A DNA stretch of 32,000 bases from Gemmata obscuriglobus (GTDB lineage Bacteria; Planctomycetota; Planctomycetia; Gemmatales; Gemmataceae): positions 5,130,001 through 5,162,000 of the forward strand of contig NZ_CP042911.1 of NCBI RefSeq assembly GCF_008065095.1. The letters run 5' to 3'. A model generated the notes under the pieces. The model ran no database searches. It was not told where the DNA came from and was given only the letters and a program-made list of their open reading frames with translations. Below, in pieces: positions 11,207 to 32,000 of this stretch; the stretch's first letter is position 1; each line of letters opens with the position of its first letter. A program made the translations under genes and the position numbers.

Positions 11207-11548
11207 GGGATGCCTCTCGATCTGTCCGATGCGGGTAACGAATCGTTGTTCAGAGATTCGGAGAAGTTTAGCTCCAACTGCACACCGGATCAACTCTCTT
11301 CGTTCAATTGTCAAAGACGTTACACTCACCACGAGCAAGACCGGGCACATAAATCCGATTGCCAGCGTCATACCGATTCGCGCAATGTGGACAGGATACG
11401 CGATTTGGAAAAGGCAACAAAACGGCCCGCGGCCCTGGCCCGAGCGGCTAATTTAATTCGCAACGCGCACATCACGGCCCCCATACCAGCTCATGTGAGC
11501 CGGTGTGCGATCCGTACTCGTGGCCGCCACCTTGAACCGGGTGCCCAG

Positions 11549-14500: not shown

Positions 14501-16669
14501 AGCGTGGCGCTAACCGCGTCGGCGGGCGCGCTGTCGGTCGGCGCGAGCGTCGCGGCCGGCATCGGCGGCGTCACCCTGACCGCCACCGACACCGCCGCGA
14601 CCACCAACACCGTAACGGTGGCCGCGGGCGTCTCGGTTTCGACCACCGCTGCCACGCTCACCATCAACGCGGGCGACGCGGTCACGATCGGCGGCACGCT
14701 CACCACCGTAGCCGGCGGCACGGTGAACGTGAACGTGGACGCGGGAGCTGTCGATGTCGGCGTGGGCGGCGCGGTCACCTTCTCGGCCACGTCGAACGTG
14801 AGCGGCGCCACCGTCATGAACGTGACCGGCGGGGCCGACGACGACACGTTCAACCTGCGCCCGCTCACCACCGGCATCACCACCAACCTGATCGCCGCGG
14901 CCGGGGCCGACACACTGAACATCGACCTGACCGCCGCGACCGCGTCGGCGTTCGGCAACATCACCGCGGTCGGGACGGGCACGTTCAGCTTCGGGAACCG
15001 CGGCAGCGTGGTCGCCACTGGGCTGGAATCGGTCGCGGCCACCGGGGGCACCTACGCCCTCAACATCGGGCTTCAAACGGCCGGGTTCCAGGACGGCAAC
15101 GCGAGCCCGGACGTGACCACCGTGTCGAACACCGGCAGCGCCCTGAACGTGACCGTTCAGGCCAACAGCACCGGTGCAACGCAAACGCTGTTCAGCGGCC
15201 GCACCGGCGACGTGAGCACCCTCACCGTCACCGGCTCGACCGACCGCGACACGGTGACCGTTGACCTCACGAACCCGCTGCCGGCGGTGACCGTCGTGGG
15301 AGGCGGCCCGACGACGATCCCGGGCGACACGCTGAACCTGATCACCACGAACGCCAACGGGGCCACGTTCACCCCGGTGGTCGGGGGCGGGACGTACACG
15401 TTCGCGAACCGCAGCGCGGTCACGTTCAGCCAGATCGAGGTCGGGCCGGCGCCGGTGCTCCGCGTCGCGGCTTCCGACGCGAGCGCCGCCGAGGGCGCCA
15501 CCCCGGACACCGGGACGTTCACCATCACCCGCGTCGGCGACACCTCCGCCGCGCTCACGGTGACGTACACGCTGAGCGGCACCGCGGTGAACGGGGTCTC
15601 CTACCAGGCGCTCACGGGCACCGTGACGTTCGCGCCCGGCGCGAGCACGGCGACCGTCACGCTGACCCCGATCGACAACTCGAGCGTGGACGGCACCCGC
15701 ACGGCGGTGCTCACGCTGTCCCCGAGCGCCTCCTACGAGATCGCAGCCGGGGCGAGCCAGGCCACGATCGCCATCGCCGACAACGACGCGCTCGGGCGGC
15801 GCCTGGTCGTGGGTTCGTCGGCCAGCGGCACGGTCCAGGTACTCGACAACAGCAGCAACACGGCGGTGGCTTCGTTCCGGCCCTACGCCGGGTACCAGGG
15901 CGGGGTATCGGTGGCGGTCGGGGACGTGACCGGCGACGGGGTGGCGGACATCGTGACCGGCGCGACCGCCCTGTCGCCGCACGTGAAGGTGTTCGACGGG
16001 GTCACCTTCAAGGAGATCCGGAGCTTCTTCGCGTTCACCAACTTCGCCAGCGGGGTGAGCGTCGCGGTCGGCGACCTTGACAACGACGGGAAGTCCGAGA
16101 TCATCGTGGGGGCCGGCACCCTGGCCCCGCACGTGAAGGTGTTCGACGCGACCACGCTGCAGGAGCGGGCCAGCTTCTACGCCTTCACGCTGACGACCGG
16201 AGCCCCGATCGCCAGCGGCATCACGGTGGCCGCGGGCGACACCGACGGCGACGGGCGGGCCGAGATCGTCGTGGGCGCGACCGTCGCCCCGCACGTGAAG
16301 ACGTTCGACCTCGCCGGCAACACGCTCCGCAGCTTCCTGGTCCCGAACCTGCCGCCGGACACCGGCATCAGTGTCGGCACCGGCGACCTCGACGGGGACA
16401 AGCGCGCGGAACTCCTGGTCGGCGCGCGGGTCGGCGGTCAGGCGGTGACGACGGTGTTCCAGGGCGAAGCCGCGATCGGGCAGTTCTCGTCCGGCGCGGT
16501 GGCGACCACGCCGCGGGTGGCGGGGACCGACCGCGACGGCGACGGGAAGGACGAACTGATCCTCACGCTCGGCCCGACCGTCAGCGTGCGGAGCGGGACG
16601 TTCCCGTTCGACCAGCTCTCCACCCTGACCCCCTTCACCGGGTTCAACGGCGGCGTGTTCGTCGGCTAA
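11549..16669 (+). CDS. Giant secreted or surface protein: N-terminal LEDR motif, long T/A/G/V-rich beta-helix-like repeats, Calx-beta domain, C-terminal FG-GAP/VCBS beta-propeller
   Basis: ORF 11210-16669. The likely start is ATG 11549 (MPNWSKQMF...RLGVEALEDRSVPA), since the upstream part has low GC3. A Calx-beta-like segment reads VLRVAASDASAAEGATPDTGTFTITRVG...VTFAPGASTATVTL. Five FG-GAP-like repeats are present (GDVTGDGVADIVTGA, GDLDNDGKSEIIVGA, GDTDGDGRAEIVVGA, GDLDGDKRAELLVGA, DRDGDGKDELIL), the first three with a PHVKVFD/PHVKTFD motif. Confidence 0.85.
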   Translation: MPNWSKQMFKSQQPTRPVHLAPRLGVEALEDRSVPATVITIQEAAGSLDGFLSATDGTIALNDLAGQAGTLSRAALQGVGAGVAISIAAENAIVFDASLTAPVALQTDGTASAAFVASNGNLAFASAKSLTTSGADLTLTSTNGVLTVANLATSGGNVTLNADAVNVLAGVQVNAGTNPTRSIVTVQPVTNTVNVDLGGAGSAGTIGLTDAELDTITARVLRVGSLTATGTIAVTAPITLAGGAVPTLSLRTGNNTATAVTQTAPLSVTNLAVQSAGTVVLTTPGNDVTTLAASVTGAGNAFRFTDTNALVLGTVDGVAGAATTTAPGSQVTLSAGALTQAAGANVTTSELELLGAGPVTLTNAGNNVATLAASVAGALSYTDADALTVGIVGGTSGVATTNSAIVIATTDGDLSITNGNAGPTPDVNAGTGTVSLTAGGAAGQNRLLAVAIDAGVTGTGGVTLTANDVEIEADVDAGAQLLLVQPFEASTPINLGTNTVGAFALTDAEIDFLITTGAVRIGNAAAGNIDVSAAITVDGASQLELITGGGVMDNNSGAQDISVARLAITAGTGIGVVGTNTPNLELSVTNLEATTATGGIGISNFGELVIGGVTGALSGLSVTTSGAIAITVTGSLTVGATPTEGVSVAGGGNITLTPSNDLAINAPVIASGGNGNITLSARNDITVDATVTVAGTGNITAGADSDNNGGGNFSNTAALTTAGGDITISAQDIELNAAATTTTAASGDIFLLTRDPADVINLGTNTGFGLTNADLNNVTTATLHIGSATNTGGIAVTGQITLGGAVPVLSLETSGAITDATGAEQTDITVASLTLLAGRAGAGGIGATGVGGLDVAVTNLAAANSSPDTGEIVIANASAALNVGTVAGRAGVVNQNTAGGVVLSSTGGIALAATVSGATGVAVSTSGGDLNTTAPVSSSTGAVQLTASGAVSIGGAVSGTGATVTAGTTLTTTAAATVTVGGAGSVALTASAGALSVGASVAAGIGGVTLTATDTAATTNTVTVAAGVSVSTTAATLTINAGDAVTIGGTLTTVAGGTVNVNVDAGAVDVGVGGAVTFSATSNVSGATVMNVTGGADDDTFNLRPLTTGITTNLIAAAGADTLNIDLTAATASAFGNITAVGTGTFSFGNRGSVVATGLESVAATGGTYALNIGLQTAGFQDGNASPDVTTVSNTGSALNVTVQANSTGATQTLFSGRTGDVSTLTVTGSTDRDTVTVDLTNPLPAVTVVGGGPTTIPGDTLNLITTNANGATFTPVVGGGTYTFANRSAVTFSQIEVGPAPVLRVAASDASAAEGATPDTGTFTITRVGDTSAALTVTYTLSGTAVNGVSYQALTGTVTFAPGASTATVTLTPIDNSSVDGTRTAVLTLSPSASYEIAAGASQATIAIADNDALGRRLVVGSSASGTVQVLDNSSNTAVASFRPYAGYQGGVSVAVGDVTGDGVADIVTGATALSPHVKVFDGVTFKEIRSFFAFTNFASGVSVAVGDLDNDGKSEIIVGAGTLAPHVKVFDATTLQERASFYAFTLTTGAPIASGITVAAGDTDGDGRAEIVVGATVAPHVKTFDLAGNTLRSFLVPNLPPDTGISVGTGDLDGDKRAELLVGARVGGQAVTTVFQGEAAIGQFSSGAVATTPRVAGTDRDGDGKDELILTLGPTVSVRSGTFPFDQLSTLTPFTGFNGGVFVG

Positions 16670-16677
16670 CGAACGGC

Positions 16678-17572
16678 TTAGTGACTGTCCCATATGTGGG
16701 ATTTATGCCACCGTGTGGTATTGAAACTCGGCGTCGACCCCTTTCGGCTCAAGCCGGTTGAGCATCAGGTGGATCATGGCCAACTTGACGAACGCCTCCG
16801 ACGACCGCACCGTCTTCTCCCGGTCCTTGGACAACCGCCGGCACGTCCCCAGCCAGGCGAACGTCCGCTCCACCGTCCACCGCCGCGGTAACTTCACCCA
16901 CCCCTTGGCCCCGTCCGGGCGGCGGACGATGACCAGCTCCCACCGGGCGTTCGTCTCGACCCACTCGTACAGGGCGTAGTTGTGGTACTTGCGGTCGGCG
17001 AACACCCGGCGCACCTTCCCCATCGGTTGCTCGTCCAGCCGGCCGAACAGTTCGGCCGCCGCCTTGGCATCATCGACGCTCGCGGCCGTCACCAGCACGG
17101 CCAGCAGCAACCCCATGGAATCCACGAGGATGTGCCGCTTCCGCCCGTCCACGTTCTTGGCGTTGTCCCGGCCCCGCTCCTCGCCGCCGGAGGTCGTGTC
17201 CACCGACTGGCTATCCACGCTCGCGGTCGTCCGGGGCGAGTACGGCCTCTCGGCGGTGCGGACCTTTTTGCGGAGAAGGTCATGGATCGTGTCGCGGGTG
17301 CCGTTGTGTCGCCACTCGTCGAAGTACCGCCCGACCGTGGACTTGGGCGGGAAGTCCTTGGGCCGGTACCGCCACTGGCAACCGGTCCGCAGCACGTAGA
17401 AGACCGCGTCGGTGACGTCCCGCAGGGCGGTGGTGCGGGGACGGCCGCCGGGGTACACGGGGATGTGTGGCTCGATGAGCCCCCACTGCTCGTCGGTCAC
17501 GTCGCTCGGGTAGGATTGGGTTCGCATGGACCATTCTACCCACCCAACCGCCACATATGGGACAGTCACTAA
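16678..17572 (-). mobile_element. IS5-family insertion sequence, copy 2 (complete, inverted relative to copy 1)
   Basis: The 22-bp terminal IRs are TTAGTGACTGTCCCATATGTGG (16678-16699) and its reverse complement (17551-17572). If the element is read as 16681-17569, it is flanked by TA on both sides (a possible 2-bp TSD). It sits 9-12 nt after the stop codon of the giant gene, depending on which element boundary is taken. Confidence 0.9.
16703..17527 (-). CDS. IS5-family DDE transposase
   Basis: ORF 16703-17605. The start is ATG 17527 (MRTQSYPSDVTDEQW...). The protein is identical to the partial copy at 2-817. Confidence 0.9.
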   Translation of the reverse strand: MRTQSYPSDVTDEQWGLIEPHIPVYPGGRPRTTALRDVTDAVFYVLRTGCQWRYRPKDFPPKSTVGRYFDEWRHNGTRDTIHDLLRKKVRTAERPYSPRTTASVDSQSVDTTSGGEERGRDNAKNVDGRKRHILVDSMGLLLAVLVTAASVDDAKAAAELFGRLDEQPMGKVRRVFADRKYHNYALYEWVETNARWELVIVRRPDGAKGWVKLPRRWTVERTFAWLGTCRRLSKDREKTVRSSEAFVKLAMIHLMLNRLEPKGVDAEFQYHTVA

Positions 17573-19048: not shown

Positions 19049-19850
19049 CCTCACCGGGTGGCCCGGCACGTGCCCGCCCGCCGCGGCGGTGCTCGGCCAG
19101 ATCCGGGTGGACGCCCAGACGAACGAGCACCAGGCGGCCCTGGCGTTGCTCGGGATCGTCCCGGTGGGCGGCTCGGTTTTGACCGGGGGTGCCACGTTCT
19201 GCCCGCGGGACGTGGCCGCGGCGGTGGTCGACGGCGGGGGCCATTACGTGCTCACGGCCAAGGACAACCAACCCGGCCTGGTGGCCGACATCGAGGCCGG
19301 GTTGGGGTTCGAGGACGCCGCCCGAGGGCTCGCGGCGGCCACGTCCCCCTGAGCCGGTCCCGACGCCCGAGCAACTGGGGCGCCCGGCCACGTCGGTGGC
19401 CCGGGGCACGGGCGGATCGAGACGCGGACCGTGCGGGCCACCCCGCTGCTGACGTGCCACGATCGGTGGACCGGATTGAAGCACGGGTCCCGCATCACCC
19501 GTGCGCGGACGGTCAAGGGTGTGACCACCGTGGAGGTGCTGCACGGGATCACCAGCTTGACGGTCGAGCGGGCCGACGCGCGAGCACTTCTGGGCCTGGT
19601 GCGGTCCCATTGGCGCATCGAGAACCAACGCCACGACGTGCGCGATGTGACCTTGGGCGCGGATGCGTGCCGGGTCCGCAAGGGGGCCGCACCGCAGGTG
19701 CTCGCGGCCCTCCGCAACGCCGCCATTCACCGGCTCGCCACCGTACCCGCCGACCGCACGCCCGAAGCACTCGAATGGCTCCAGCGACACCCCGAACACG
19801 CGCACAACCTTATCGGCATCACCCAACGTGAATAACGGAACGGCCCTGGG
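19049..19850 (+). pseudogene. ISAs1-family IS, copy A (5' third deleted at the IS3 junction; transposase interrupted)
   Basis: Homology to copy B starts directly at the IS3 end. The right IR is GTGAATAACGGAACGGCCCTGG (19829-19850). The protein pieces are ...QIRVDAQTNEHQAALALLG...HYVLTAKDNQPGL...AATSP-stop, then GHGRIETR...HWRIENQRHDVRDVTLGADACRVRKG. The D of the DAM motif is replaced (GGATF). Confidence 0.85.
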
Positions 19851-21229: not shown

Positions 21230-21447
21230 AGTTCGGTGCCACCCGCAGCCAGATCTACGACGCACAAAAGACCGCCCGCGCCAAATGGGACGAAACGTTC
21301 ACCTCCTGGGACGACCAGGTCCACCGGGAGCACGAGGAGAAGGTGGTGGAACCGCTCGACCACGCGGTCAGCGACGCGCTACGGGCCATCGACCAGCTCG
21401 CGGTGCTGTTCACCCAGATCCGCCTGGAGTGCGAGTTCCCGTCGTGA
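21226..21447 (+). CDS. Small helical protein, possible second (short) WXG100-like partner
   Basis: The protein is 73 aa and is translationally coupled to the upstream gene through the ATGA overlap. Its central TSWDDQVHREHEEKV echoes DSWRDQEHDRFRQEF of the 90-aa protein. Confidence 0.5.
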   Translation: MKFGATRSQIYDAQKTARAKWDETFTSWDDQVHREHEEKVVEPLDHAVSDALRAIDQLAVLFTQIRLECEFPS

Positions 21448-21520
21448 CCCGTCGTCGGGTCGTTGGCGTTCACGTTTCCTGAGTGCGCCCGCACGTCGCC
21501 CACTTACGCACGGTGCATCC

Positions 21521-24500
21521 ATGCCCGACAACTTGTTCGATCACCAGCGGGCCGCGCTCGCGGGCCTCTCCGACGCCGCCCGCGAGCGCGCCGCCGCCGA
21601 AGCCGAGTTGACCGCCGCGTTCGAAACCGCCCGCGACAAGGCCGAGCGGGACATCGCCCGCACGCGGAAGGCGCACGCCGCCGCCCTTGGAGCGGAGCTC
21701 ACCGAACTCGACACGGAGCGTGCCACCACGCTCGCGCGTATCGCCACCGACTTCACCGCCGAGCAGGTGCGTCAGGACCGCACCCGCGAGGAGCGGCGCA
21801 AGCTCCTCATCGACCGGTTCCATGCCGCGGAGAAGAGCGGGCAGGCCAAGTTCGACGAGCAGTTGTGGAGCCACCACACGCTCCTTGAAGCCGGCGAGAA
21901 GACCGCGCGGGACCAACACGACACGCTGCAGCGCAAGGCCGCCGCGGGGGCCGAACAGGTGGAATCGCTGTGGGCGGACGCCGAACCGCTCCTGAAGCGC
22001 GGGCGGGTGACACGGGCGGCCGTCGAGTCCGCCGAAGCGCTGCCGGAACCTGGCGACGACGACCCCATCAAGCGGATGAACAAGTGGCTCGGCGCCGCTG
22101 ACAAGAGCGTCGAGCGGCTGGCACGGGCGAAAACGCCGTCGTGGGGCTCGCCGCTGCGCCTTCCCGTGCTGCTGGCGCTGTTCGCGGGCGTCGGTGCGAG
22201 TTCGTTCGCGGCCGTGCCGGACGTCGCCACGGCCGGGGCGATCACCGGCGGCGCCGCCGTGGTGCTCGGATTCGGATCGTGGGTCCTGCTCCGCTGGCTC
22301 GGAAAACGGACAACGCTCCGCGAAGGGAAAGTGATCGCGCAGCAGCTCGCGGAGGCGGCGCGTGCGTGCCAGTTGCTCCGGGAGTTCGCGACGGCGCAGC
22401 ACGCGGCCGAGATCCGGCGTCTGAACGAAAAGCACGACCGGGACCGGCAGCGCACCGAGGAGCACTACAAGCCGTTACTGGCGTCACAAAAGAGGCAGTT
22501 CGAAGACGAGCTGCGGCGGCTCGACTCCGACTTCGCAACGGCGGCGGAGCGGCTCCGGAACAAGCGCGACGCCGACACCCGCACCGCCGACAACCAGTAC
22601 AACACCAAGAAGGCCGAAACCGAATCGCGCAGAGGCGGCGAGTTGGCCGCCGCGGAGGCGACGTTCGCCGAACGAATGGCCCAACTGACCGCGGCCCGCG
22701 ACGCCCAGTGGGAGAAAATGGCGGGCGCCTGGAACGCCACCACCCAAAGCGTGGCCGGCACTTTTGAGGAACTCCGGGCCGCGGGCGCCGCGTTCCCCGC
22801 GTGGGACGCGTTCACACCGAACCGCCCGCTCGCGGACCGCGTCCCCGCGGGCATCCGCTTCGGCTCGGTGATTGTCGATCTGGGTACGATCACCGATGCC
22901 GTACCCACCGACCCGCGCCTGGCGCCGGCGGCGGCGCTGAGCGGCGAGGTGCCGGCGTACTTGCCCTTCCCGGACCGGTGTTCGGTGCTGATGCGGTGCC
23001 GCGACGAGGGCCGCGCCGCGGGCATCTCGGCCCTGCAAGCGATGATGCTGCGGTTCCTCACCGGCCTGCCGGCCGGCAAGGTCCGGTTCACAATCGTCGA
23101 TCCGGTCAGCCTCGGCGACAGCTTCGCCGCGTTCATGCACCTCGCGGACTACGACGAGAAGCTGGTCACCTCGAAAATCTGGACCGACCCGCGCGACATC
23201 GAGGCGCGGCTCTCGGACCTGACCGACCACACCGCGAGCGTGATCCAGAAGTACCTGCGCAACCAGTACAAGTCGATCGAGGAGTACAACAAGGCGGCAG
23301 GCGAGGTGGCCGAGCCGTACCGCGTGCTGGTGGTCGCGAACTTCCCGAACAACTTCACCCCGGAGGCGGCCAAGCGCCTCGTCAGCCTCGCGAACAGCGG
23401 CCCGTCGTGCGGCGTGTGCGTGCTGGTGACGGCGGACACGCGCGCCGCGATGCCGCGCGACTTCAACATCGCGGACCTCGAAGCCGCCAGCTACACGCTC
23501 GTCTGGAAGGACAACACGTTCGTGCCGAAAGACCCCGTGCTGGCCCCGTTCGTGCCGGCACTCGACCGCCCGCCGGAGCCGGCAACGATCGCCAGCATCG
23601 TTCAGCGGGTCGGCAAAGGCAGCAAGGAAGCGGCCCGGGTGGAGGTGCCCTTCGAGTACATCGCCCCCAGGCCCGAGGACGTCTGGACCGGCAGCGCGGC
23701 GAAGAGTTTCGACGTGGCCGTGGGCCGCGCGGGCGCGACGCGGAAGCAACTGTTCTCGCTCGGTCGCGGAACGGCGCAGCACGCCGTGATCGCGGGGAAG
23801 ACCGGGTCCGGCAAGTCCACTCTGCTGCACGCGCTGATTACGAACCTCGCTCTCACCTACAGCCCCGACGAGGCGGAACTCTATCTGATCGACTTCAAGG
23901 AAGGGGTCGAGTTCCAGTGGTACGCCAACTACCGGTTGCCGCACGCGCGGGTCGTGGCGATCCAGAGCGAGCGCGAGTTCGGGCTGAGCGTGCTCCAGCG
24001 CCTGGACGGCGTCCTGCGCGAGCGCGGCGAGAAGTTCCGTGACGCCGGCGTCAACGACCTGGCCGGCTACCGCGCGGCCGTGCCGCACGAGAAGACGCCG
24101 CGCATTCTCCTGGTGATCGACGAGTTTCAGGCGTTCTTCACCGAGGATGATAAGCTCGCGCAAGAGGCGTCGCTCCTGCTCGACCGGCTGGTGCGCCAGG
24201 GCCGCGCCTTCGGGATGCACGTCCTGCTCGGCTCGCAAACGCTCGGGGGCTCGTACTCCCTCGCGCGAAGCACCATCGACCAGATGGCAGTGCGCGTCGC
24301 GCTCCAGTGCTCCGACGCCGACGCGCAAATGATCCTCAGCAAGGACAACACAGCCGCCCGGTTGCTGTCGCGGCCCGGGGAGGCGATCTACAACGACCAG
24401 AACGGCATGGTCGAAGGGAACGACCCGTTCCAGGTGGTGTGGCTCGCGGAGGAGAAGCGCGAGCAGGTGCTCGAAGAGCTCCACGCGCGGGCCGGCGACC

Positions 24501-25387
24501 GGTGGCCCGCGCCGCTGGTGTTCAGCGGGAACTCGGCCGCAGTGCTCGCGAACAACCGCCCGCTGGCGAAGCAGTTGCGCGAACCGGCGCCCGTGAAAGT
24601 GCCGACCGCGTGGCTCGGCGATCCGGTGGCCATCAAGGAGCCGACGGCGGCCCTGTTCCGCGCCCATGGCGGCTCGAACCTGCTCATGATCGGCCAGAGC
24701 GAGGAGGTCGCCCGGGCGCTGTTCGTCTCCTCGGTACTCAGCCTCGCGGCTCAGGCGCCCGAAACGAAGTTCACCCTCCTCGACGGCACCCCGGACGACG
24801 CGGACGAAGCCGAATACCTCCGCAAGTTCACCGAGAAGTTGCCTTCCGCTACCGCCCCGAACCGTGCCGGCCTACCCGCCGCACTCGCCGAACTTACGGG
24901 GGAGATCGATAAGCGCCAAAAGGGAGAAAGCGAGCGCACGCCGCGGTTCGTGCTGATCTTCGGAATCCACCGGTTCCGCGAGCTGCGCAAAGCCGAGGAC
25001 GATTTCAGCTTCGGGCGCCGCGGCGAGCGCGAGCCGTCCCCCGCCGAGCGGCTCGCAACGATCTTGAAGGACGGCCCGCTCTCTGGCGTTCACGCGGTCG
25101 TGTGGTGCGACTCGCTCGTGAACCTGAACCGCGCGTTCGACCGACCGCTCCTGCGCGAGTTCGCACTGCGGGTGCTGTTCCAGATGAGCGCGACCGACTC
25201 CAGTACCCTGATGGACGCGCCGACCGCCTCGAAGTTGGGCCGGCACCGGGCGTTGTACCTCCAGGACGAACAGGACCGGCCCGAGAAGTTCCGCCCCTAC
25301 GGGTTACCCGCGCCGGAGTGGCTCGACGAGGCGTGTGCGTCCCTCCGAGCCCGACTCGCGTTGCAGCCGGAACACGCGGCGGTGTAA
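21521..25387 (+). CDS. Membrane-anchored FtsK/SpoIIIE-family ATPase with three P-loop-type modules (EssC/EccC-like)
   Basis: ORF 21236-25387; the likely start is ATG 21521 (MPDNLFDHQ...), giving 1288 aa. Walker A AGKTGSGKST is at 23792-23821 and Walker B RILLVIDEF at 24101-24127. Degenerate flanking modules are present (KVRFTIVDP...YRVLVVANFP upstream; NLLMIGQSEE...RFVLIFGIHRF downstream). Two TM helices map to about 22150-22300, with coiled coils on both sides. Confidence 0.85.
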   Translation: MPDNLFDHQRAALAGLSDAARERAAAEAELTAAFETARDKAERDIARTRKAHAAALGAELTELDTERATTLARIATDFTAEQVRQDRTREERRKLLIDRFHAAEKSGQAKFDEQLWSHHTLLEAGEKTARDQHDTLQRKAAAGAEQVESLWADAEPLLKRGRVTRAAVESAEALPEPGDDDPIKRMNKWLGAADKSVERLARAKTPSWGSPLRLPVLLALFAGVGASSFAAVPDVATAGAITGGAAVVLGFGSWVLLRWLGKRTTLREGKVIAQQLAEAARACQLLREFATAQHAAEIRRLNEKHDRDRQRTEEHYKPLLASQKRQFEDELRRLDSDFATAAERLRNKRDADTRTADNQYNTKKAETESRRGGELAAAEATFAERMAQLTAARDAQWEKMAGAWNATTQSVAGTFEELRAAGAAFPAWDAFTPNRPLADRVPAGIRFGSVIVDLGTITDAVPTDPRLAPAAALSGEVPAYLPFPDRCSVLMRCRDEGRAAGISALQAMMLRFLTGLPAGKVRFTIVDPVSLGDSFAAFMHLADYDEKLVTSKIWTDPRDIEARLSDLTDHTASVIQKYLRNQYKSIEEYNKAAGEVAEPYRVLVVANFPNNFTPEAAKRLVSLANSGPSCGVCVLVTADTRAAMPRDFNIADLEAASYTLVWKDNTFVPKDPVLAPFVPALDRPPEPATIASIVQRVGKGSKEAARVEVPFEYIAPRPEDVWTGSAAKSFDVAVGRAGATRKQLFSLGRGTAQHAVIAGKTGSGKSTLLHALITNLALTYSPDEAELYLIDFKEGVEFQWYANYRLPHARVVAIQSEREFGLSVLQRLDGVLRERGEKFRDAGVNDLAGYRAAVPHEKTPRILLVIDEFQAFFTEDDKLAQEASLLLDRLVRQGRAFGMHVLLGSQTLGGSYSLARSTIDQMAVRVALQCSDADAQMILSKDNTAARLLSRPGEAIYNDQNGMVEGNDPFQVVWLAEEKREQVLEELHARAGDRWPAPLVFSGNSAAVLANNRPLAKQLREPAPVKVPTAWLGDPVAIKEPTAALFRAHGGSNLLMIGQSEEVARALFVSSVLSLAAQAPETKFTLLDGTPDDADEAEYLRKFTEKLPSATAPNRAGLPAALAELTGEIDKRQKGESERTPRFVLIFGIHRFRELRKAEDDFSFGRRGEREPSPAERLATILKDGPLSGVHAVVWCDSLVNLNRAFDRPLLREFALRVLFQMSATDSSTLMDAPTASKLGRHRALYLQDEQDRPEKFRPYGLPAPEWLDEACASLRARLALQPEHAAV

Positions 25388-25405: not shown

Positions 25406-26645
25406 CCAGGGCCGTTCCGTTATTCACGTTGGGTGATGCCGATAAGGTTGTGCGCGTGTTCGGGGTGTCGCTGGAGCCATTCGAGTGCTTCGGGCGTGCG
25501 GTCGGCGGGTACGGTGGCGAGCCGGTGAATGGCGGCGTTGCGGAGGGCCGCGAGCACCTGCGGTGCGGCCCCCTTGCGGACCCGGCACGCATCCGCGCCC
25601 AAGGTCACATCGCGCACGTCGTGGCGTTGGTTCTCGATGCGCCAATGGGACCGCACCAGGCCCAGAAGTGCTCGCGCGTCGGCCCGCTCGACCGTCAAGC
25701 TGGTGATCCCGTGCAGCACCTCCACGGTGGTCACACCCTTGACCGTCCGCGCACGGGTGATGCGGGACCCGTGCTTCAATCCGGTCCACCGATCGTGGCA
25801 CGTCAGCAGCGGGGTGGCCCGCACGGTCCGCGTCTCGATCCGCCCGTGCCCCGGGCCACCGACGTGGCCGGGCGCCCCAGTTGCTCGGGCGTCGGGACCG
25901 GCTCAGGGGGACGTGGCCGCCGCGAGCCCTCGGGCGGCGTCCTCGAACCCCAACCCGGCCTCGATGTCGGCCACCAGGCCGGGTTGGTTGTCCTTGGCCG
26001 TGAGCACGTAATGGCCCCGCCGTCGACCACCGCCGCGGCCACGTCCCGCGGGCAGAACGTGGCACCCCCGGTGAGCACCGAGCCGATCCCGAGCAACGCC
26101 AGGGCCGCCTGGTGCTCGTTCGTCTGGGCGTCCACCCGGATCTGGCCGAGCACCGCCGCGGCGGGCGGGCACGTGCCGGGCCACCCGGTGCGGGCCCGGC
26201 ACGTGCCCGCCCCGGCTCCCGCGCAGGCACTTGCCGTCCAGGGCCACATGCGCGCGGGCGTCCGGGGTCAGGCGGCCCGCGATCCACCGGCCCAGGGCCG
26301 CCTCCAGTTGCTGGGGGGCGATCCGCCGCAAGGTCCGGGACAGGGTCGACGCGGACGGCGTTTGACCCCGCCGGAACCCGCGCGCGTGAGCCAACGGGGT
26401 CCCGTACTGGCGCCCGAACCGGGCGATCCCCTGGAGGCCCGTGCGGCCCATCCGCACCGCCAACGCGACCAACCCGAGGACCGCCGGCAGCGGGTGGATC
26501 CGGCCCTGCAACCCGCGCGGGTCGGGGACCGTTGACTACTACTCATACTGCCAGCGCGCGCGGGCATCGAGCACCTCGGGCCGAAGGAGTGCCCCGCTAC
26601 CCAACAAGCCTGCACGCGACAAGGTGAAATAAGGAACGGCCCTGG
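25406..26645 (-). mobile_element. ISAs1-family IS, copy B (full length, transposase pseudogenised)
   Basis: The IRs are CCAGGGCCGTTCCGTTATTCAC (25406-25427) and GTGAAATAAGGAACGGCCCTGG (26624-26645). The N-terminal part is present (MQGRIHPLPAVLGLVALAVRMG...VALDGKCLRGS). The C-terminal 134-aa ORF is identical to copy A. Several frame changes and a 15-nt deletion relative to copy A are visible. Confidence 0.85.
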
Positions 26646-27468: not shown

Positions 27469-27544
27469 GGGTGTACGACATGCTTTGCGCCTACCCAGCG
27501 AGTCTGTGTCGGCGTTCGCCGGTGATGTTGGCTTGTCGTCGATT

Positions 27545-28803
27545 CCAGTAGTTTCAAGTTGGCGGCTTGGTTTTGTTGGCCGATCGTGCAGTAGTAATGG
27601 ACTTATTTTCGCCATCTGTAGGTGCCAGCCCATCGGCCAACAGTATCAGGCATACCGCCGCCAGTGTCCACCCGAGGCCGCGGGCTGAGCGGGACCACAA
27701 CCAGGCGTTACGCAGGATCAGCCCGACGGCCACCCACAGGAGTCGCACGACCCCATCGGTGGTCGAGGTCCGGGGCCGAACCTGCCCCAACTGGCGGTAG
27801 CTGCTCTCGATCCCGAATCGGGTCCGGTACAGGTCCCGAATCGCCACCGGGCTCCCGCTCACCCGCCACACCGCGTACAGTAACTTCTTGCTCCGCCGGC
27901 CCCCGGTCCGCCGGTACCGGTAGCTCTTGTGAGCGATCACCACGTGCACCCGCACCGAGGTGCCCCGATCCGCGTGGGTGTACGCATATCGACCCGCGCC
28001 CCGCCGCCGCACGGCCCGCAACCCGACCCCCTTCACCCCGGGCCGGGGCTTGCGGCCCCGGACCACGGCCGGGATCACGAACGGCACACCCCGCGCCTGG
28101 AGCAACCGCATCACCGCGATCGAGAAGAACGCCTTGTCCAGCAGCGCGACCCGGACCGTAACCCGTGCCGCCGTCACCTGATCCAACAGCCGGGTGAGCA
28201 CCGCGGTCATCGGCTCCTTCTCGCCCACGGCCGTCAACCCGAGCGTGTACCGGTCCGGTCCCCCGACGAGGCACGCGGTGGCGTACGTGTGGAACGTGTG
28301 GGTGCCGCCGGCCCCCTTGGACCGGGTGGTGTCCCGGTTCGGCGTCCCGAAGTACCCGATCCGGTGGTAGTCGATCGCGACCCGAGCCGCCCGCTTCCGC
28401 TTGCCGAGCGGGGCGTGGAGGGCCGGCCGCAACCGCCGCTCGAGGGTGCGGCGCCGCTTGGGCAGCGTGAGGTACAAGCAATCCCAGATGGCCTGCCCGG
28501 ACGGGGCGTCGGCGATCGCGGCACAGGCCGCGGCCACCGAGCGGGCGAACGCCGCGGCGAACAGCACCACCCGCCACACCACCTCGGGTGTACAGGTGCG
28601 GCGACGCTTGGGCAGTTGGACCGCACGGCCGAGCCAGTCGGTCAGGACCGGACGGAGGTGCCGGGTGGCGTGGGCCGGGGTGGCTCGGATAGACTGACGT
28701 TTGGGTCGCATGGGGGCTCCGACAGTGGAGGCGTGGTAACCACCATTGACCGGTAAACCCATGCGGCCCGCTACTCATAAATCGCCCAACTTGAAACTAC
28801 TGG
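27545..28803 (-). mobile_element. IS4/ISH3-like insertion sequence nested inside the ISKra4-like transposase gene
   Basis: The 18-bp IRs are CCAGTAGTTTCAAGTTGG (27545-27562) and CCAACTTGAAACTACTGG (28786-28803). ATT lies on both flanks (27542-27544 and 28804-26806 read as 28804-28806), a possible 3-bp TSD. Excising it restores the host ORF. Confidence 0.85.
27554..28711 (-). CDS. DDE transposase (IS4/ISH3-like)
   Basis: ORF 27554-28762. The likely start is ATG 28711 (GGAG plus a 5-nt spacer; MRPKRQSIRA...). Motifs are VAIDYHRIGYFG, ALLDKAFFS and YRTRFGIESSYRQLGQ. Confidence 0.8.
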   Translation of the reverse strand: MRPKRQSIRATPAHATRHLRPVLTDWLGRAVQLPKRRRTCTPEVVWRVVLFAAAFARSVAAACAAIADAPSGQAIWDCLYLTLPKRRRTLERRLRPALHAPLGKRKRAARVAIDYHRIGYFGTPNRDTTRSKGAGGTHTFHTYATACLVGGPDRYTLGLTAVGEKEPMTAVLTRLLDQVTAARVTVRVALLDKAFFSIAVMRLLQARGVPFVIPAVVRGRKPRPGVKGVGLRAVRRRGAGRYAYTHADRGTSVRVHVVIAHKSYRYRRTGGRRSKKLLYAVWRVSGSPVAIRDLYRTRFGIESSYRQLGQVRPRTSTTDGVVRLLWVAVGLILRNAWLWSRSARGLGWTLAAVCLILLADGLAPTDGENKSITTARSANKTKPPT

Positions 28804-30525
28804 ATTCCAGAAGTCATCGAGCGGTGCGGTTTCGCTGAGCAGGTCGGCCCGGAGTTGGAGGATCGCTTCGGCGCCCGGCTCGGACCAGAACTTCTCGGAC
28901 CCCTTGACCCGATGATTCATCTGCTTGATCGTCGACTCCACGTGGCTGGTGGTGATCGGCAGACCGGCCCGGCGATACTCCGCGTATTTCATACGTCCCC
29001 GTTGGTTCTCGAAGTCGCACCGGGCCTCGGCTACGCACACCCGCGGGTGCGTCTCGCCGTCGGTCGCCTCGGGCATCCCGAGAACCTGTTGCCGCGACTC
29101 CAGACCCGACACGACCGTCGCAACATCCCCACGCCACAGCGCCTCGATCCACTGCACATATCGGGACCAACCCTCCCCAAACGGACCACCCGCCATCGCG
29201 GCACCGTACACATACGCCAACGCGTGGATGAAATCGACCACCGGCGTGAAGCTCGAGAAGTGCCGTTCCCACACGCCCCAGTTGGCATTCGACCCGTCGC
29301 CCAGAAACACCCGGCGTTTCGACCCGTAGAACCCACGGGCCCAAGCCGCGGCCGCCAGCAACCCACCGAACACCTCGACCCCCTGCTTGGTGCTCACCAC
29401 GCTCCGCACGACCAACTCGGGCGGTTCGTACCGGCCGGTCGCCTCGGGCACCGGTTGGGGATCGACCGGGGCGACCGCGTCACCGGCCGGCTCACGCCCG
29501 GCGGCCTTCGATTCCGACTTGATTTCCTGGGCCAGACGCGGGATCCGCTCGGGGTCGATATAGTGCGTGGGAATTTGCGGGCACGGGTCGTCCGTGTCGG
29601 ACACACTCGCCATTGAGGCCAGCAAACCCACCTTGTCCTCACGCCAATGCTCCCCCTTCTTCTTCTTCTTCGGGGGTACCGGCGTCGCGACCGCGGAGCC
29701 CTTCGGCTGTTCCGGTGACGTCGGGTTCCGGATCTGAAGCCTTCCGCCGTCCATCTGGACCACCGCAATCGGCGGGGGCACGACATCCGGAGGCGCCTTC
29801 TTGCGTTCAACCAGAGGCAAGGACTCGTAAGCCGCGACGGCGGCATCGCGTTCGGCACACCGCTCGGTACCGATCTGTTGCGTTCGTCGCTCGACCTGCT
29901 TGACCGGAACCGGAACCTCGGCCAGTTCCCGCAGGGCCTCAGCGGCCAGCGCAAACGATCCGCACCGGGTGCCCGCGAACACGACTTTCTTCAACAGGGC
30001 CGGGGATTGCCCGCCGCGGTCAATCGCCAGACTCGCCGACTGAGGGAAAAAAAGCCCGCCGGCAGGCGGTGCAGTAGGCCGACGGTTCGCTCCACTCCGC
30101 TTCCCCGACCCGCGTGGTGAGGATGCGTGGTTCGGGATCACCGGGTGATGGCGTCTGTCGGCACCCCGGGCATTGTTGTCTCTCGGCGGGTATGGTGCCG
30201 GCCGCTTGTTTCTGGAGAGCTTGGCGGAGCAGTTCGCGTGACACCGTTTGGCCCAACTGGACGACCAGTTCTTCGAGTTCCTCGAACGTCGTGCCCCACG
30301 GCGGCCCATCGGGTCCGAACAGCCTCTCGACCAACGTTTTGGCCACCCCGTCCAGGTACGCCTTATTCGCTGCGACTTCGGGACGAGCGTTATTGGGGCG
30401 TGCCATACCTGATCTCCACCAACGACTTGTGTGGCTCGCACGGCCGTTATTTCTTCGAGCCGCGGTCTATCATGATACCCCAACTTGCAAACCGTGTCGT
30501 GGACCCGGTCACTTCCGCCTCCGCC

Positions 30526-30616
30526 GCCGAACAATGAGCTCACCTGCACCGCCATGATACAGTCAGCGACGCGTCCCGAATCACATGGCGGTGTCAGGTG
30601 CAGCGCCGGGTTCGGC
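30526..30616 (-). repeat. 91-bp imperfect palindromic element, copy 1 (attC-like)
   Basis: On the plus strand it reads GCCGAAC-N8-CACCTGCACCGCCAT-29 nt loop-ATGGCGGTGTCAGGTG-N9-GTTCGGC. It contains the stop codon of the DUF2314-like ORF (30581-30583). Confidence 0.85.
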
Positions 30617-31051
30617 TTCTGCGCTATCCCGCCAGTAGTCGCGGGGCCACACTCGATCCGGCGGCTGACCCAACTGCCAGGCGACGTACTCGGGCGGCGG
30701 GTGGCCGATGTCGAGCACGTGCTCCGCCCGGAACGGTACCTCAGCCCCGAAGCACAGGTACACCCGGTCGGACCGTTCGAGGCACGCTGGCTGGTTGTCC
30801 AGGATGCCGATGTACGTGTCGCCGACCCGCTCGGCCACGAGCACCCACATACGCTCCGACCGCACCCCGACCGACCCGTCGTTCTCGTAAGCCTCGATAT
30901 GGAACAGCAGCTTAGCGGCGTCGCCGCGCTTGAGGCCGCGGCGCTGGTCGAGCGGGGGCACCCAGAACGTGTCGGGGTGCTGTCGGCTCAACTCCTCACC
31001 GGAGTCGATTTGCCAGTAATCACGCTCGAATGTGGCAAGCCGCACCGCCAC
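30581..31051 (-). CDS. DUF2314-like small protein (hypothetical)
   Basis: ORF 30581-31459. The part upstream of 31100 reads through repeat copy 2 and a GC-rich spacer and is probably not coding. The likely start is GTG 31051 (AGAGGG plus a 7-nt spacer) or ATG 31099. The core SERMWVLVAERVGDTYIGILDNQP...VPFRAEHVLDI resembles the DUF2314 signature as I recall it. Confidence 0.5.
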   Translation of the reverse strand: MAVRLATFERDYWQIDSGEELSRQHPDTFWVPPLDQRRGLKRGDAAKLLFHIEAYENDGSVGVRSERMWVLVAERVGDTYIGILDNQPACLERSDRVYLCFGAEVPFRAEHVLDIGHPPPEYVAWQLGQPPDRVWPRDYWRDSAEAEPGAAPDTAM

Positions 31052-31069
31052 TCGAAAACCCTCTGGGTG

Positions 31070-31160
31070 GCCGAACAGAAAGCTCACCGGCACCGCCATC
31101 ACCGGATCAGCGATGCGTCCCGAATCAGCGGGCGGTGTCAGGTGCAGCGCCGGGTTCGGC
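31070..31160 (-). repeat. 91-bp imperfect palindromic element, copy 2 (attC-like)
   Basis: It has the same architecture and the same length as copy 1, and is bounded by GCCGAAC (31070-31076) and GTTCGGC (31154-31160). It lies 544 bp from copy 1. Confidence 0.85.
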
Positions 31161-31251
31161 TTTCTCATTGCTGCACACCTCGGTGACGACCGAGGCTCAC
31201 CAACTCTTGAGCCACGCATCGGGAACACCAACTCTCCTGGCACAGCTCCGG

Positions 31252-31569
31252 TCAAGGCGGCGCCTTCTCTACCCCATGCTTGCGCTCCGACTCCTCTCGT
31301 TCGCGTTGGTTCCTTACCCTTTCCTGAGCGTGCCGCACATGGCCGAGCGTGGCGATGATCGTGGCCCCGAACACCAGCGCCACGGATGCGAGAAGGAACA
31401 TGACCACGAAGCGCGGCCGCTGCGGCCACACGCCGGTGTAGAGCGCGATGAGGAGCCATCCCACCAATACCGCAGCCAATGCCAAGCAGGCACCCCAGAT
31501 CGCCACTTCGCCAGGGGTACTAGTTTCCCAGTCTGGCTCTGGAGTCAAAATGGCGTTGGCAAACACCAA
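31252..31569 (-). CDS. Small membrane protein with two TM helices (hypothetical)
   Basis: The ORF is 105 aa. GAGGAG lies 3-6 nt upstream of the TTG 31569 / GTG 31566 starts. The two hydrophobic helices are AIWGACLALAAVLVGWLLIALY and FVVMFLLASVALVFGATIIATL, followed by a charged tail. Confidence 0.55.
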   Translation of the reverse strand: MVFANAILTPEPDWETSTPGEVAIWGACLALAAVLVGWLLIALYTGVWPQRPRFVVMFLLASVALVFGATIIATLGHVRHAQERVRNQREREESERKHGVEKAPP

Positions 31570-31583
31570 TCGCTCCTCGGGTG

Positions 31584-31674
31584 GCCGAACGAACAGCTCA
31601 CCTGCACCGCCATCATCGGATGAGCGATGCGTCCCGAATCAGATGGCGGTGTCAGGTGCAGCGCCGGGTTCGGC
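31584..31674 (-). repeat. 91-bp imperfect palindromic element, copy 3 (attC-like)
   Basis: It has the same architecture and length, and is bounded by GCCGAAC (31584-31590) and GTTCGGC (31668-31674). It lies 514 bp from copy 2 and contains the stop codon of the upstream ORF (31639-31641). Confidence 0.85.
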
Positions 31675-31914
31675 GTGCTTTTGGTGAGCCGTGGGTGCCG
31701 GAATCTGCTCCCGGCGCCACGCCACGGCCACGGCGGCCACCGCTCCGACCACCAGCCCCACGAGCAGCCCCTGTGACACGCCCGAACCGATGCCCACGTG
31801 CAGAGGGCTGAACCACGTCCCCACCGGCCGAAAATGCTCGGCGGGAGTACCCGGGGGCCGCCGCTCCGAGGAGATAACCGCCCCCGCCGCCGGCACACGC
31901 CCCGGCGAGGCCAC
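31639..31914 (-). CDS. Small glycine-zipper-type membrane protein (hypothetical; the 5' part is uncertain)
   Basis: The C-terminal part HVGIGSGVSQGLLVGLVVGAVAAVAVAW looks like a TM helix, and the stop lies inside repeat copy 3. A second frame (31652-31984) encodes a further TM-like segment upstream (LRAYLIVCLSGLAGACAGGGGGYLLG). A frameshift near the C5/G3 run at about 31852-31860, or a start beyond the window, is therefore possible. Confidence 0.3.
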   Translation of the reverse strand: MASPGRVPAAGAVISSERRPPGTPAEHFRPVGTWFSPLHVGIGSGVSQGLLVGLVVGAVAAVAVAWRREQIPAPTAHQKHAEPGAAPDTAI

Positions 31915-32000
31915 TCAGGCACACGATCAGGTATGCCCGCAGGACCGACACGGCGCCCCCCAGACGCAGCCCCCGGATGAGCACGGTGACCGACCCGATG

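What the first reader, a model, noticed from the sequence alone, without database searches (positions are those of the whole stretch)
30526..31674. Three 91-bp attC-like palindromes at 514 and 544 bp spacing between small co-oriented ORFs: candidate integron cassette array
Seen in the sequence: the three elements are each exactly 91 bp (30526-30616, 31070-31160, 31584-31674). On the coding (minus) strand each reads 5'-GCCGAAC-N9-CACCTGACACCGCC..-loop of about 29 nt-..GGCGGTGC(A/C)GGTG-N8-GTTCGGC-3'. That is an outer 7-bp inverted pair and an inner 15/16-bp inverted pair. The loop-distal ~45 nt are almost invariant. All three copies keep the same single unpaired base (the A in CTGACACC) on the arm nearest the upstream ORF. 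Each interval between elements holds one small minus-strand ORF. A Shine-Dalgarno-like GAGG(AG) and a start codon follow directly after GTTCGGC-CACCC in copies 2 and 3. ORFs that run into an element all end with the same tail, AEPGAAPDTAx-TGA. Established knowledge: integron attC sites are 57-141 bp imperfect palindromes bounded by RYYYAAC and GTTRRRY, with an asymmetric extrahelical base. They sit at the 3' end of each promoterless cassette, and chromosomal arrays have species-specific, highly similar attC sites. GCCGAAC and GTTCGGC deviate from the consensus at one position. Inference: this is the distal part of an integron cassette array, or a CALIN (cluster of attC sites lacking an integrase). 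The integrase and attI, if present, would lie beyond nt 32000. The array is cut on its downstream side by the ISKra4-like insertion about 20 bp after copy 1.
Basis: partly seen in the sequence, partly recalled or inferred. Interest (0 to 1): 0.7.

Follow-up and report, generated by a model that had tools for sequence, protein, structure and literature searches.

The report
Integron gene-cassette array in Gemmata
The three 91-base palindromes are genuine integron recombination sites (attC): they close the last three gene cassettes of a 131-cassette array in Gemmata obscuriglobus that has no integrase gene next to it, so this is a large but ordinary member of a well-known kind of gene-capture system.

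Summary
The window comes from Gemmata obscuriglobus CP025958.1. Its three 91-nt elements are the last three of 131 co-oriented copies spanning 68.65 kb (array A). At least three more arrays (44, at least 19 and at least 64 copies) lie elsewhere in the genome. As single-stranded DNA each element folds into a 7-bp outer stem, a 5-nt spacer, a 3-bp stem, a bulge at nt 16, a 6-bp stem, a bulge at nt 23 and a variable loop. Both bulges sit at the same positions as in the aadA1 attC of plasmid R100. The inner stem covaries. Cassettes behave as modules: identical copies sit between different neighbours, and a 99.7 %-identical cassette shared with another Gemmata genome starts and ends exactly at GTTCGGC. 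In four related genomes a TIGR02249 integron integrase lies just upstream of the same elements, in the same orientation as the cassettes. Array A has no integrase; it starts with a conserved attI-like head and ends in an insertion-sequence pile-up, so it is a CALIN. An inactivated intI has been reported on the contig that carries another array. The kind is known; the scale and the attI-like heads without an integrase are of modest interest.

The parts
31584..31674 (-). attC site, copy 3 (third from the end of array A). R'' box GCCGAAC at 31674-31668; R' box GTTCGGC at 31590-31584.
   Evidence: 117 bits. Folds as 7 bp, 5 nt, 3 bp, bulge G16, 6 bp, bulge A23, stem, loop.
31076..31589 (-). One complete 514-nt cassette, running from the TT of copy 3's R' box to the G of copy 2's R' box. 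It holds a 104-aa membrane-type ORF (31252-31566) and attC copy 2 (31070-31160).
   Evidence: This exact protein is annotated in G. obscuriglobus.
31070..31160 (-). attC site, copy 2. It carries C instead of A in the 3' arm, which leaves a T-C mismatch at pair 21-72.
   Evidence: 111.5 bits.
30532..31075 (-). One complete 544-nt cassette, the last of the array. Its 156-aa ORF (30581-31051) has its last 36 nt inside attC copy 1.
   Evidence: 1284 representative homologues, conserved over residues 3-138, some fused to TIR domains; pLDDT 92.
30526..30616 (-). attC site, copy 1, the last attC of array A.
   Evidence: 114 bits.
31675..32000 (-). 3' part of the cassette that ends with copy 3. Its upstream attC lies 251 nt beyond the window end. 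The candidate ORF 31639-31914 ends in the tail AEPGAAPDTAI, but the reading frame is uncertain.
30506..30525 (-). Stub of about 14-20 nt (GGCGGAGGCGGAAG...) that resembles the start of other cassettes, then breaks into insertion-sequence DNA.
   Evidence: The exact breakpoint is inferred, not mapped.
28808..30505 (-). ISKra4-family insertion sequence that ends the array. Its transposase is split by a frameshift at a run of seven T (ORFs 30020-30406 and 28771-29982). Its 3' end is cut by the next IS.
   Evidence: NF033572: 38 and 138 bits, model positions 18-103 and 130-420.
27541..28807 (-). ISH3-family insertion sequence with 22-bp terminal inverted repeats, inserted into the end of the ISKra4-like element.

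Best explanation
What it is. The 91-nt elements are attC recombination sites of integron gene cassettes. Each cassette is one short promoterless ORF followed by one attC. The window holds the last two complete cassettes and part of a third from a 131-cassette, 68.65-kb array in the Gemmata obscuriglobus chromosome.

How it works (inferred from established integron biology). When the DNA becomes single-stranded, one strand of the attC folds into a hairpin. The invariant outer stem (GCCGAAC/GTTCGGC) and the two bulged bases are recognised by an integron integrase (IntI). IntI cuts between the G and the TT of GTTCGGC, and so excises, inserts and reshuffles cassettes.

What is shown here. The fold, its covariation, the canonical positions of the bulges, and the strict co-orientation are shown. 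So are the one-ORF-per-unit layout, cassette boundaries exactly at GTTCGGC, the presence of the same cassette between different neighbours, and IntI genes next to the same elements in relatives.

What is inferred. Which strand is recombined is not shown. Whether recombination still happens in G. obscuriglobus is not shown either.

Status of this array. It has no integrase of its own, so it is a CALIN. It begins with a conserved attI-like head and ends in a pile-up of insertion sequences. Any activity would need an integrase supplied in trans. The only intI reported for this genome was judged inactivated.
For: Source. The window is CP025958.1; window position p corresponds to record coordinate 2,890,374 - p.

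Array layout. Array A holds 131 co-oriented copies and is fully read. Arrays B (44 copies), C (at least 19) and D (at least 64) were also found. A further 225 copies lie in 60 Gemmata and Gemmataceae loci, co-oriented within each locus.

Structure. The fold is significant. Both bulges sit at nt 16 and nt 23, exactly as in the aadA1 attC of plasmid R100. For covariation, 96.5 % of cells are paired and 13 pairs show changes on both sides. The score is 0.191, against 0.049 when shuffled and at most 0.024 when slid. In an independent HMM-based alignment, pair 21-72 reads TA 165 / GC 61 and pair 25-69 reads AT 187 / CG 51. G16 is kept in 266 of 267 copies and A23 in 263 of 267.

Modularity. There are 145 homologous cassette pairs in which both neighbours differ. 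Most 100 %-identical duplicates carry the loop of the downstream attC (33/33 identical) but not that of the upstream one (17-26/33). A cassette 99.7 % identical to one in Gemmata sp. SMAG_U3706 begins and ends exactly at GTTCGGC.

Integrase. IntI homologues lie directly upstream of the elements, in the same orientation as the cassettes, in L004, L005, L021 and L041. Three IntI proteins were scored against TIGR02249: those of L041, L021 and G. algarum. They reach 420-450 bits against a cut-off of 265, over the full model length.

Published model. The Planctomycetes attC filter HMM has the same architecture and hits only the elements: 44/44 with default settings and 74/74 without the bias filter, with 0 off-target hits in 84 kb.

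Prior record. An intI of G. obscuriglobus UQM 2246 is listed as inactivated on contig ABGO01000017.1, the contig that carries array D (PMC3108266).
Against: - No integrase is adjacent to this array. None is found in 84 kb around it or in the window.
- No intact G. obscuriglobus IntI appears among the best 120 homologues of two Gemmataceae IntI proteins.
- The R'' and R' boxes each differ from RYYYAAC and GTTRRRY at one position. The changes compensate each other.
- The base bulged at nt 16 is G on the coding strand. It is C in the aadA1 attC.
- The published Planctomycetes HMM gives weak individual scores (at most 17 bits; E = 0.24 and 0.6 in the window; copy 1 is missed).
- The IntegronFinder covariance model could not be run.
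- No recombination experiment exists.
Confidence: 0.93

Rival explanations
1. REP-, BIME- or MITE-like palindromic repeats that spread through intergenic regions, independent of any integron.
For: The elements are imperfect palindromes, about 90 nt long, highly similar to one another and intergenic. The genome is full of insertion sequences.
Against: Copies are co-oriented within each array and each locus (131, 44, at least 19, at least 64, and 225 copies in 60 loci). The window has none outside the array. The units between them move as cassettes with boundaries at GTTCGGC. IntI genes adjoin them in relatives.
Confidence: 0.02
2. The hairpins act mainly at the RNA level, as terminators or mRNA-stabilising 3' stem-loops after each small gene. 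The array would have arisen by ordinary tandem gene amplification.
For: Each hairpin sits at the 3' end of an ORF and would be transcribed. Covariation cannot tell DNA pairing from RNA pairing.
Against: No run of T follows the stem. The outer 7-bp stem is invariant in sequence, as expected for a recombinase core site rather than a purely structural helix. Both bulges are kept at the attC positions. Unrelated genes share the same element. Identical cassettes lie between different neighbours. An RNA role could exist alongside the attC role.
Confidence: 0.03
3. An immunity-gene array of a polymorphic-toxin system, whose conserved intergenic repeats promote homologous recombination without any integrase.
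For: Many cassettes encode SUKH/SMI1_KNR4, Imm1 or Barstar-type proteins.
Against: No toxin gene heads the array. Many cassettes are unrelated to immunity proteins (TIGR02996, bS21, membrane proteins). The breakpoints fall at the G|TT of the R' box rather than anywhere within the 91-nt repeat. Immunity-type cassettes are compatible with an integron.
Confidence: 0.02

Closest known systems
Clusters of attC sites lacking an integrase (CALIN; Cury et al. 2016, PMC4889954)
   Same: Two or more attC sites with no intI nearby. They are often next to insertion sequences and often occur in genomes that carry an intI or intI pseudogene elsewhere. Array A fits this definition.
   Different: At 131 sites it exceeds the largest CALIN quoted in that survey (114). 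It keeps a conserved attI-like head. The genome holds at least four such arrays.
Sedentary chromosomal integrons, such as the Vibrio cholerae superintegron with its VCR attC sites
   Same: A very long chromosomal array of short cassettes, mostly of unknown function, with nearly identical lineage-specific attC sites and duplicated cassettes. (The comparison with Vibrio rests on established knowledge.)
   Different: This array has no integrase at its head. In relatives, intI is transcribed towards the cassettes rather than away from them. As I recall, this 'inverted' arrangement has been described for Treponema and some other phyla. The cassettes are spread over several arrays.
attC of aadA1 in the class 1 integron of plasmid R100 (NC_002134.1)
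   Same: Identical architecture: outer stem, 5-nt spacer, 3-bp stem, bulge at nt 16, 6-bp stem, bulged A at nt 23, terminal stem-loop. It lies directly after the ORF and ends in GTTRRRY (compared).
   Different: It is 60 nt rather than 91 nt. There is no sequence similarity outside AAC and GTT; the Gemmata covariance model does not detect it. The base bulged at nt 16 is C there and G here.
Planctomycetes attC model of Ghaly et al. 2021 (PMC8352920; 188 chromosomal attC sites)
   Same: Consensus GCCUAAC-AAuGC-GUU-G-CAgC ... GCUG-AaC-UucGuC-GUUAGGC, the same 7 / 5 / 3 / bulged G / stem layout. Its filter HMM aligns to the Gemmata elements in register and hits nothing else.
   Different: The Gemmata family has G where the model prefers U at position 4 of R'' (probability about 5 % in the model). 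It has a different spacer and a longer inner stem. HMM scores are low, so the family seems poorly represented in that training set.

Membership tests
Integron attC site | Terminal inverse core sites R'' (RYYYAAC) and R' (GTTRRRY), with AAC and GTT conserved | tested here: met
   GCCGAAC and GTTCGGC are nearly invariant in 267 unique copies (97-100 % paired). Position 4 of each box departs from the degenerate consensus, but the two changes are complementary. The published Planctomycetes model allows G there at about 5 %.
Integron attC site | Imperfect palindrome that folds into R box, unpaired central spacer, L box with extrahelical bases on the ORF-proximal arm, and a variable terminal loop | tested here: met
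   Bulges at nt 16 and nt 23 match the aadA1 attC fold. Loop sequence and length vary (74-115 nt overall).
Integron attC site | Score above threshold with the IntegronFinder attC covariance model | not testable with these tools
   The model is not available here. As a surrogate, the filter HMM of the Ghaly et al. Planctomycetes model was rebuilt from the supplement. It hits 2 of 3 window copies (E = 0.24 and 0.6) and 44-74 of the 85 copies read at that point, with no off-target hit. Scores are at most 17 bits.
Integron cassette array | Co-oriented attC sites, each at the 3' end of one co-oriented ORF, a few hundred bases apart | tested here: met
   131 of 131 copies are co-oriented. In the part of the array first read, spacing was 286-1803 nt. 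Nearly all annotated genes are on the same strand. Start codons lie 9-25 nt after R'.
Integron cassette array | Cassettes are discrete mobile units bounded at the G|TT of R' | tested here: met
   Identical cassettes lie between different neighbours. The downstream attC travels with the cassette and the upstream one does not. An inter-genome cassette at 99.7 % identity is bounded by GTTCGGC on both sides.
Complete integron | Integron integrase (tyrosine recombinase with the IntI-specific domain) and attI adjacent to the array | tested here: not met
   There is no IntI homologue in the 84 kb around array A or in the window. The feature is met in relatives: IntI homologues adjoin the elements in L004, L005, L021 and L041. 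The L041, L021 and G. algarum proteins score 420-450 bits on TIGR02249 against a cut-off of 265. An attI-like head is present at the start of array A. An inactivated intI is reported on the contig of array D.
CALIN | [quoted passage not shown] | tested here: met
   Definition from PMC4889954.
Integron attC site | Recombined by an integron integrase as a folded single strand | not testable with these tools
   This needs an in vivo or in vitro recombination assay.
REP / BIME / MITE repeats | Dispersed copies in both orientations, unrelated to a single array | tested here: not met

The most novel reading that the evidence does not exclude
In Gemmata the attI-like 'head' is itself a portable unit, and one genome runs several attI-headed cassette platforms that share one integrase acting in trans, or none.

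In G. obscuriglobus the arrays read at their start (A, B, C1, C2) begin with the same conserved non-coding head. It is conserved for up to about 470 nt, carries three GTGTTATTGYGC repeats and ends in CTAAACACTG|GTTCGGC. No intI lies in the sequence read upstream of A, C1 or C2.

In Gemmata sp. SMAG_U3706 the homologous head of about 175 nt follows the intI stop codon at one locus. At four other loci it sits in a cassette position, directly after the R' box of another attC.

If these heads are functional attI sites, arrays could be seeded or fused by attI x attC exchange. Large 'orphan' arrays would then be working insertion platforms rather than decayed integrons.
Probability: 0.3. Interest if true: 0.6.

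Novelty: new member of a known kind. Interest (0 to 1): 0.35.

Why it matters
It places one of the largest cassette reservoirs outside the Proteobacteria in a cultivable, well-studied planctomycete. At least 258 attC sites lie in at least four arrays covering about 134 kb, roughly 1.5 % of the genome.

The material suits three open questions. How do integrase-less arrays (CALIN) arise and persist? Do they keep a usable attI? Can cassettes still move when the only integrase reported for the genome is inactivated? A 99.7 %-identical cassette shared with another Gemmata genome, and 100 %-identical duplicates inside the array, suggest recent movement.

There is also a practical point. Genome annotators call ORFs that run through the attC sites, which adds spurious shared C-terminal tails to many G. 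obscuriglobus proteins.

Tried and rejected
- Rfam at gathering thresholds found nothing in the window. This is expected, because attC sites are DNA elements.
- The first guess at the start codon of cassette 2, the guess for cassette 1, and one IS gene returned no record. The ISKra4-like transposase is single-copy, so it did not help in walking along the genome.
Proteins obtained through the cluster look-up were accepted, and that route allowed the walk.
- The third homologue search returned a 91 %-identical representative instead of the G. obscuriglobus protein.
- No G. obscuriglobus IntI appeared among the best 120 homologues of two Gemmataceae IntI proteins. tblastn with IntI against about 170 kb of array sequence gave only noise; the best hit was a 36-residue match at E = 0.5 inside array D, which I rejected as chance.
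- The Gemmata covariance model does not detect the aadA1 attC of R100. The comparison with canonical attC sites therefore rests on architecture, not on a shared model.
- I counted top-strand against bottom-strand wobble pairs by hand from the table to see which strand folds. The counts were about 46 and 43, so the test was uninformative.
- Pfam, NCBIfam and PADLOC gave no significant match for the three window cassette proteins; the best was a sub-threshold DUF3995 match for cassette 2. Foldseek against the PDB gave no significant match for the confident model of cassette protein 1.
- The sigma-70 consensus scan of the array A head found no promoter-like site.
- Full-text searches found no paper that describes the Gemmata arrays themselves.
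Full report
OBSERVATION. On the minus strand the window carries three 91-nt elements at 31674-31584, 31160-31070 and 30616-30526. Start-to-start spacing is 514 and 544 nt. Their first 30 nt are identical. The differences lie in the central loop, in the 5-nt 3' spacer, and at one A/C position in the 3' arm. A 30-mer search with three mismatches allowed finds only these three sites in 32 kb, with none expected by chance. As single-stranded DNA each folds into a 7-bp outer stem (GCCGAAC/GTTCGGC), a 5x5-nt internal loop, a 3-bp stem, a bulged G at nt 16, a 6-bp stem, a bulged A at nt 23, a further stem of 8-10 bp, and a loop of about 27 nt. The z-score is about -4 for copies 1 and 3. It is weaker for copy 2, whose A-to-C change breaks one pair.

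SOURCE AND EXTENT. One cassette protein is annotated with exactly this sequence in Gemmata obscuriglobus CP025958.1. The window is identical to that record, with the window minus strand equal to the record plus strand. I walked upstream using paralogous cassette proteins and read the whole array. It holds 131 co-oriented elements between 2,791,196 and 2,859,848, a span of 68.65 kb. Of these, 125 score at least 40 bits against a profile of the three window copies. The window holds the last three.

Three further arrays turned up. Array B has 44 copies at 2,509,788-2,531,101. Array C has at least 19 copies in two sub-arrays within 417,035-437,277. Array D has at least 64 copies ending at 6,682,096. 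A pattern scan of one genome per species found the element almost only in Gemmata and Gemmataceae: 60 loci and 225 copies, co-oriented within every locus, with up to 14 copies in 8 kb.

STRUCTURE AS AN attC SITE. I recalled the attC of aadA1 from memory and then verified it. It lies at 100 % identity between aadA1 and qacEdelta1, downstream of intI1, on plasmid R100. Its fold has the same layout and puts both bulges at nt 16 and nt 23; the second bulge is an A in both elements.

The Planctomycetes attC model published by Ghaly et al. (PMC8352920) also has 7 paired, 5 unpaired, 3 paired, a bulged G at position 16 and then a stem. I rebuilt its filter HMM. It hits nothing in the window except copies 3 and 2, full-length and in register (E = 0.24 and 0.6). 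In the 84-kb array region it hits 44 elements with default settings and 74 without the bias filter, with no off-target hit. Individual scores are weak, at most 17 bits.

Covariation supports the inner helix. In an HMM-based alignment of 267 unique copies, pair 21-72 is TA in 165 and GC in 61. Pair 25-69 is AT in 187 and CG in 51. Pair 26-68 is CG in 214 and GC in 33. G16 and A23 are kept in 266 and 263 copies. In a covariance-model alignment, 96.5 % of cells pair and 13 pairs change on both sides. The score is 0.191, against 0.049 when shuffled and at most 0.024 when slid. The outer 7-bp helix never covaries, as expected for a recombinase core site.

CASSETTES ARE MODULES. I split the arrays at the elements, which gave 251 cassette bodies. 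Among them, 145 homologous pairs have unrelated neighbours on both sides. For most 100 %-identical duplicates the downstream element is identical in its loop (33/33) and its 3' spacer (5/5). The upstream element differs (17-26/33 and 2-3/5). The mobile unit is therefore the ORF plus the downstream attC, and the junction lies in the R' box. One 390-nt cassette is 99.7 % identical between G. obscuriglobus and the Gemmata sp. SMAG_U3706 assembly. Its flanking cassettes are unrelated, and even the upstream attC belongs to a different subfamily. The homology starts and stops exactly at GTTCGGC. This is the behaviour that defines integron cassettes.

INTEGRASE. Proteins 51-55 % identical to IntI1 lie directly upstream of the elements in four loci: strain CJuql4, a Planctomycetota MAG, Gemmata sp. 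SMAG_U3706, and a contig binned as Alcaligenaceae. In all four the gene has the same orientation as the cassettes. My recalled IntI1 query is identical to the R100 gene over the 186 residues available. Three IntI proteins were scored against the NCBIfam integron-integrase model TIGR02249: those of CJuql4, the Planctomycetota MAG and G. algarum. They reach 420-450 bits against a cut-off of 265, over its full length. Public sources name them integron integrases.

Array A has no such gene. Nothing is found in 6 kb upstream, inside the array, or in the 30 kb downstream that the window covers. The genes upstream are lpxK, larE and zinc-ribbon proteins of unknown function. Array A is therefore a CALIN in the sense of Cury et al.. 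Cambray et al. 2011 list an intI of G. obscuriglobus UQM 2246 as inactivated, on contig ABGO01000017.1. That contig carries array D. The gene should lie just upstream of the part of array D that I could read.

ENDS OF THE ARRAY. Array A starts at a lone GTTCGGC preceded by CACTAAACACTG. This resembles the junction found 150-170 nt after the intI stop codon in two complete integrons. The same head, conserved for up to about 470 nt and carrying three GTGTTATTGYGC repeats, also precedes arrays B, C1 and C2 and a G. algarum array. In SMAG_U3706 the homologous head follows intI once. At four other loci it follows the R' box of another attC. I read the head as a candidate attI; this has not been tested.

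At the other end, copy 1 is followed by about 14-20 nt that look like the start of another cassette. Then comes an ISKra4-family element with a frameshifted transposase. That element is in turn cut by an ISH3-family element with 22-bp inverted repeats, and more IS fragments follow.

THE SHARED PEPTIDE TAIL. ORFs enter the element in all three frames. In the part of array A first read, 19 stop at the loop TGA (tail AEPGAAPDTAx), 10 stop at the TGA that contains the bulged A (tail RTRRCT), 10 stop in the third frame, and 27 stop before the element. Homologues of cassette protein 1 align only to residues 3-138, and the last 17 residues are modelled with low confidence. The tail is a by-product of ORFs overlapping a conserved attC site, not a functional motif.

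CASSETTE CONTENT. Recognisable families include SUKH/SMI1_KNR4, Imm1, Barstar, TIGR02996, an NTF2-like protein, DUF3108-like proteins, and four identical copies of a ribosomal protein bS21 paralogue. The three window cassettes match no significant Pfam, NCBIfam or PADLOC family. Cassette protein 1 belongs to a large unnamed family of about 135 residues. It is predicted with pLDDT 92 and has no significant PDB neighbour. In some relatives the domain lies C-terminal to a TIR domain.

VERDICT. I found no paper that describes these arrays. However, the integrase of this species and attC models for the phylum are already in the literature. The array would probably be picked up by standard software, although I could not run it. 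What is mildly new is the scale and the presence of conserved attI-like heads on several arrays that lack an integrase.

Noticed in passing
L065 5150-5644 (head of array A); L073 about 190-416; L076 about 8250-8725 and about 16600-17079; L009 65: Every G. obscuriglobus array read at its start begins with the same conserved non-coding head, up to about 470 nt long. It has three GTGTTATTGYGC repeats and ends in CTAAACACTG|GTTCGGC. No integrase lies upstream of A, C1 or C2. It is a candidate attI with a possible promoter region.
   Followed up: partly
L022 about 957-1131; L032, L053 and L059 (minus strand); L004 next to intI: In Gemmata sp. SMAG_U3706 a homologous head of about 175 nt follows the intI stop codon at one locus. 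At four other loci it sits in a cassette position, directly after the GTTCGGC of another attC. This looks like the product of attI x attC exchange, or like a portable attI unit.
   Followed up: partly
CP025958.1 2,808,878 (array A) and L029: A 390-nt cassette is 99.7 % identical between G. obscuriglobus and a Gemmata MAG of another species, while all flanking sequence differs. This points to recent horizontal exchange of a single cassette.
   Followed up: yes
Loci of Gemmata sp. SMAG_U3706, e.g. L029, L048, L057, L060: A second attC subfamily (GCCGAACCGGGCGCTGCACCGGACCGCGCC...GGCGCGGCCGGTGAGCT...GTTCGGC) is interleaved with the main one in the same arrays. It differs by compensatory changes in the inner stem.
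   Followed up: yes
window 30581-31051 (-): Cassette protein 1 belongs to a widespread unnamed family of about 135 residues (1284 representative homologues). It is predicted with pLDDT 92 and has no significant PDB fold match. In some relatives the domain is fused C-terminally to a TIR/SEFIR domain, which hints at a defence-related role.
   Followed up: partly
L072 6785-7039 and 19257-19511; L079 and L080 10001-10255: Four identical cassettes in arrays A and D encode an 84-aa ribosomal protein bS21 paralogue.
   Followed up: no
window 30581-31168 and 31545-31898 (-): GenBank gene calls run through attC sites. One is a 195-aa call that spans attC copy 2; another is a 117-aa call that reads through copy 3. 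These are probably over-extended or spurious ORFs of a 68 % G+C genome.
   Followed up: partly
window 1-843 and 16677-17519: An 843-nt perfect inverted repeat, made of IS5-family copies, brackets a 15.8-kb segment. The segment includes a 1819-aa repeat protein (11210-16669). The layout resembles a composite transposon.
   Followed up: no
window 19237-19849 and 25406-26018: A 613-nt perfect inverted repeat of IS4-type transposase fragments brackets a 1383-aa FtsK/NACHT-type ATPase gene (21236-25387).
   Followed up: no
window about 30040-30050 (-): The ISKra4-family transposase is split into two ORFs at a run of seven T. This is either a programmed frameshift site or an inactivating mutation.
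   Followed up: no
L005 (contig CAZKIQ010000141.1): A contig binned as 'uncultured Alcaligenaceae' carries a Gemmata-type intI and a Gemmata-type attC (79 bits). It is probably mis-binned planctomycete DNA.
   Followed up: no
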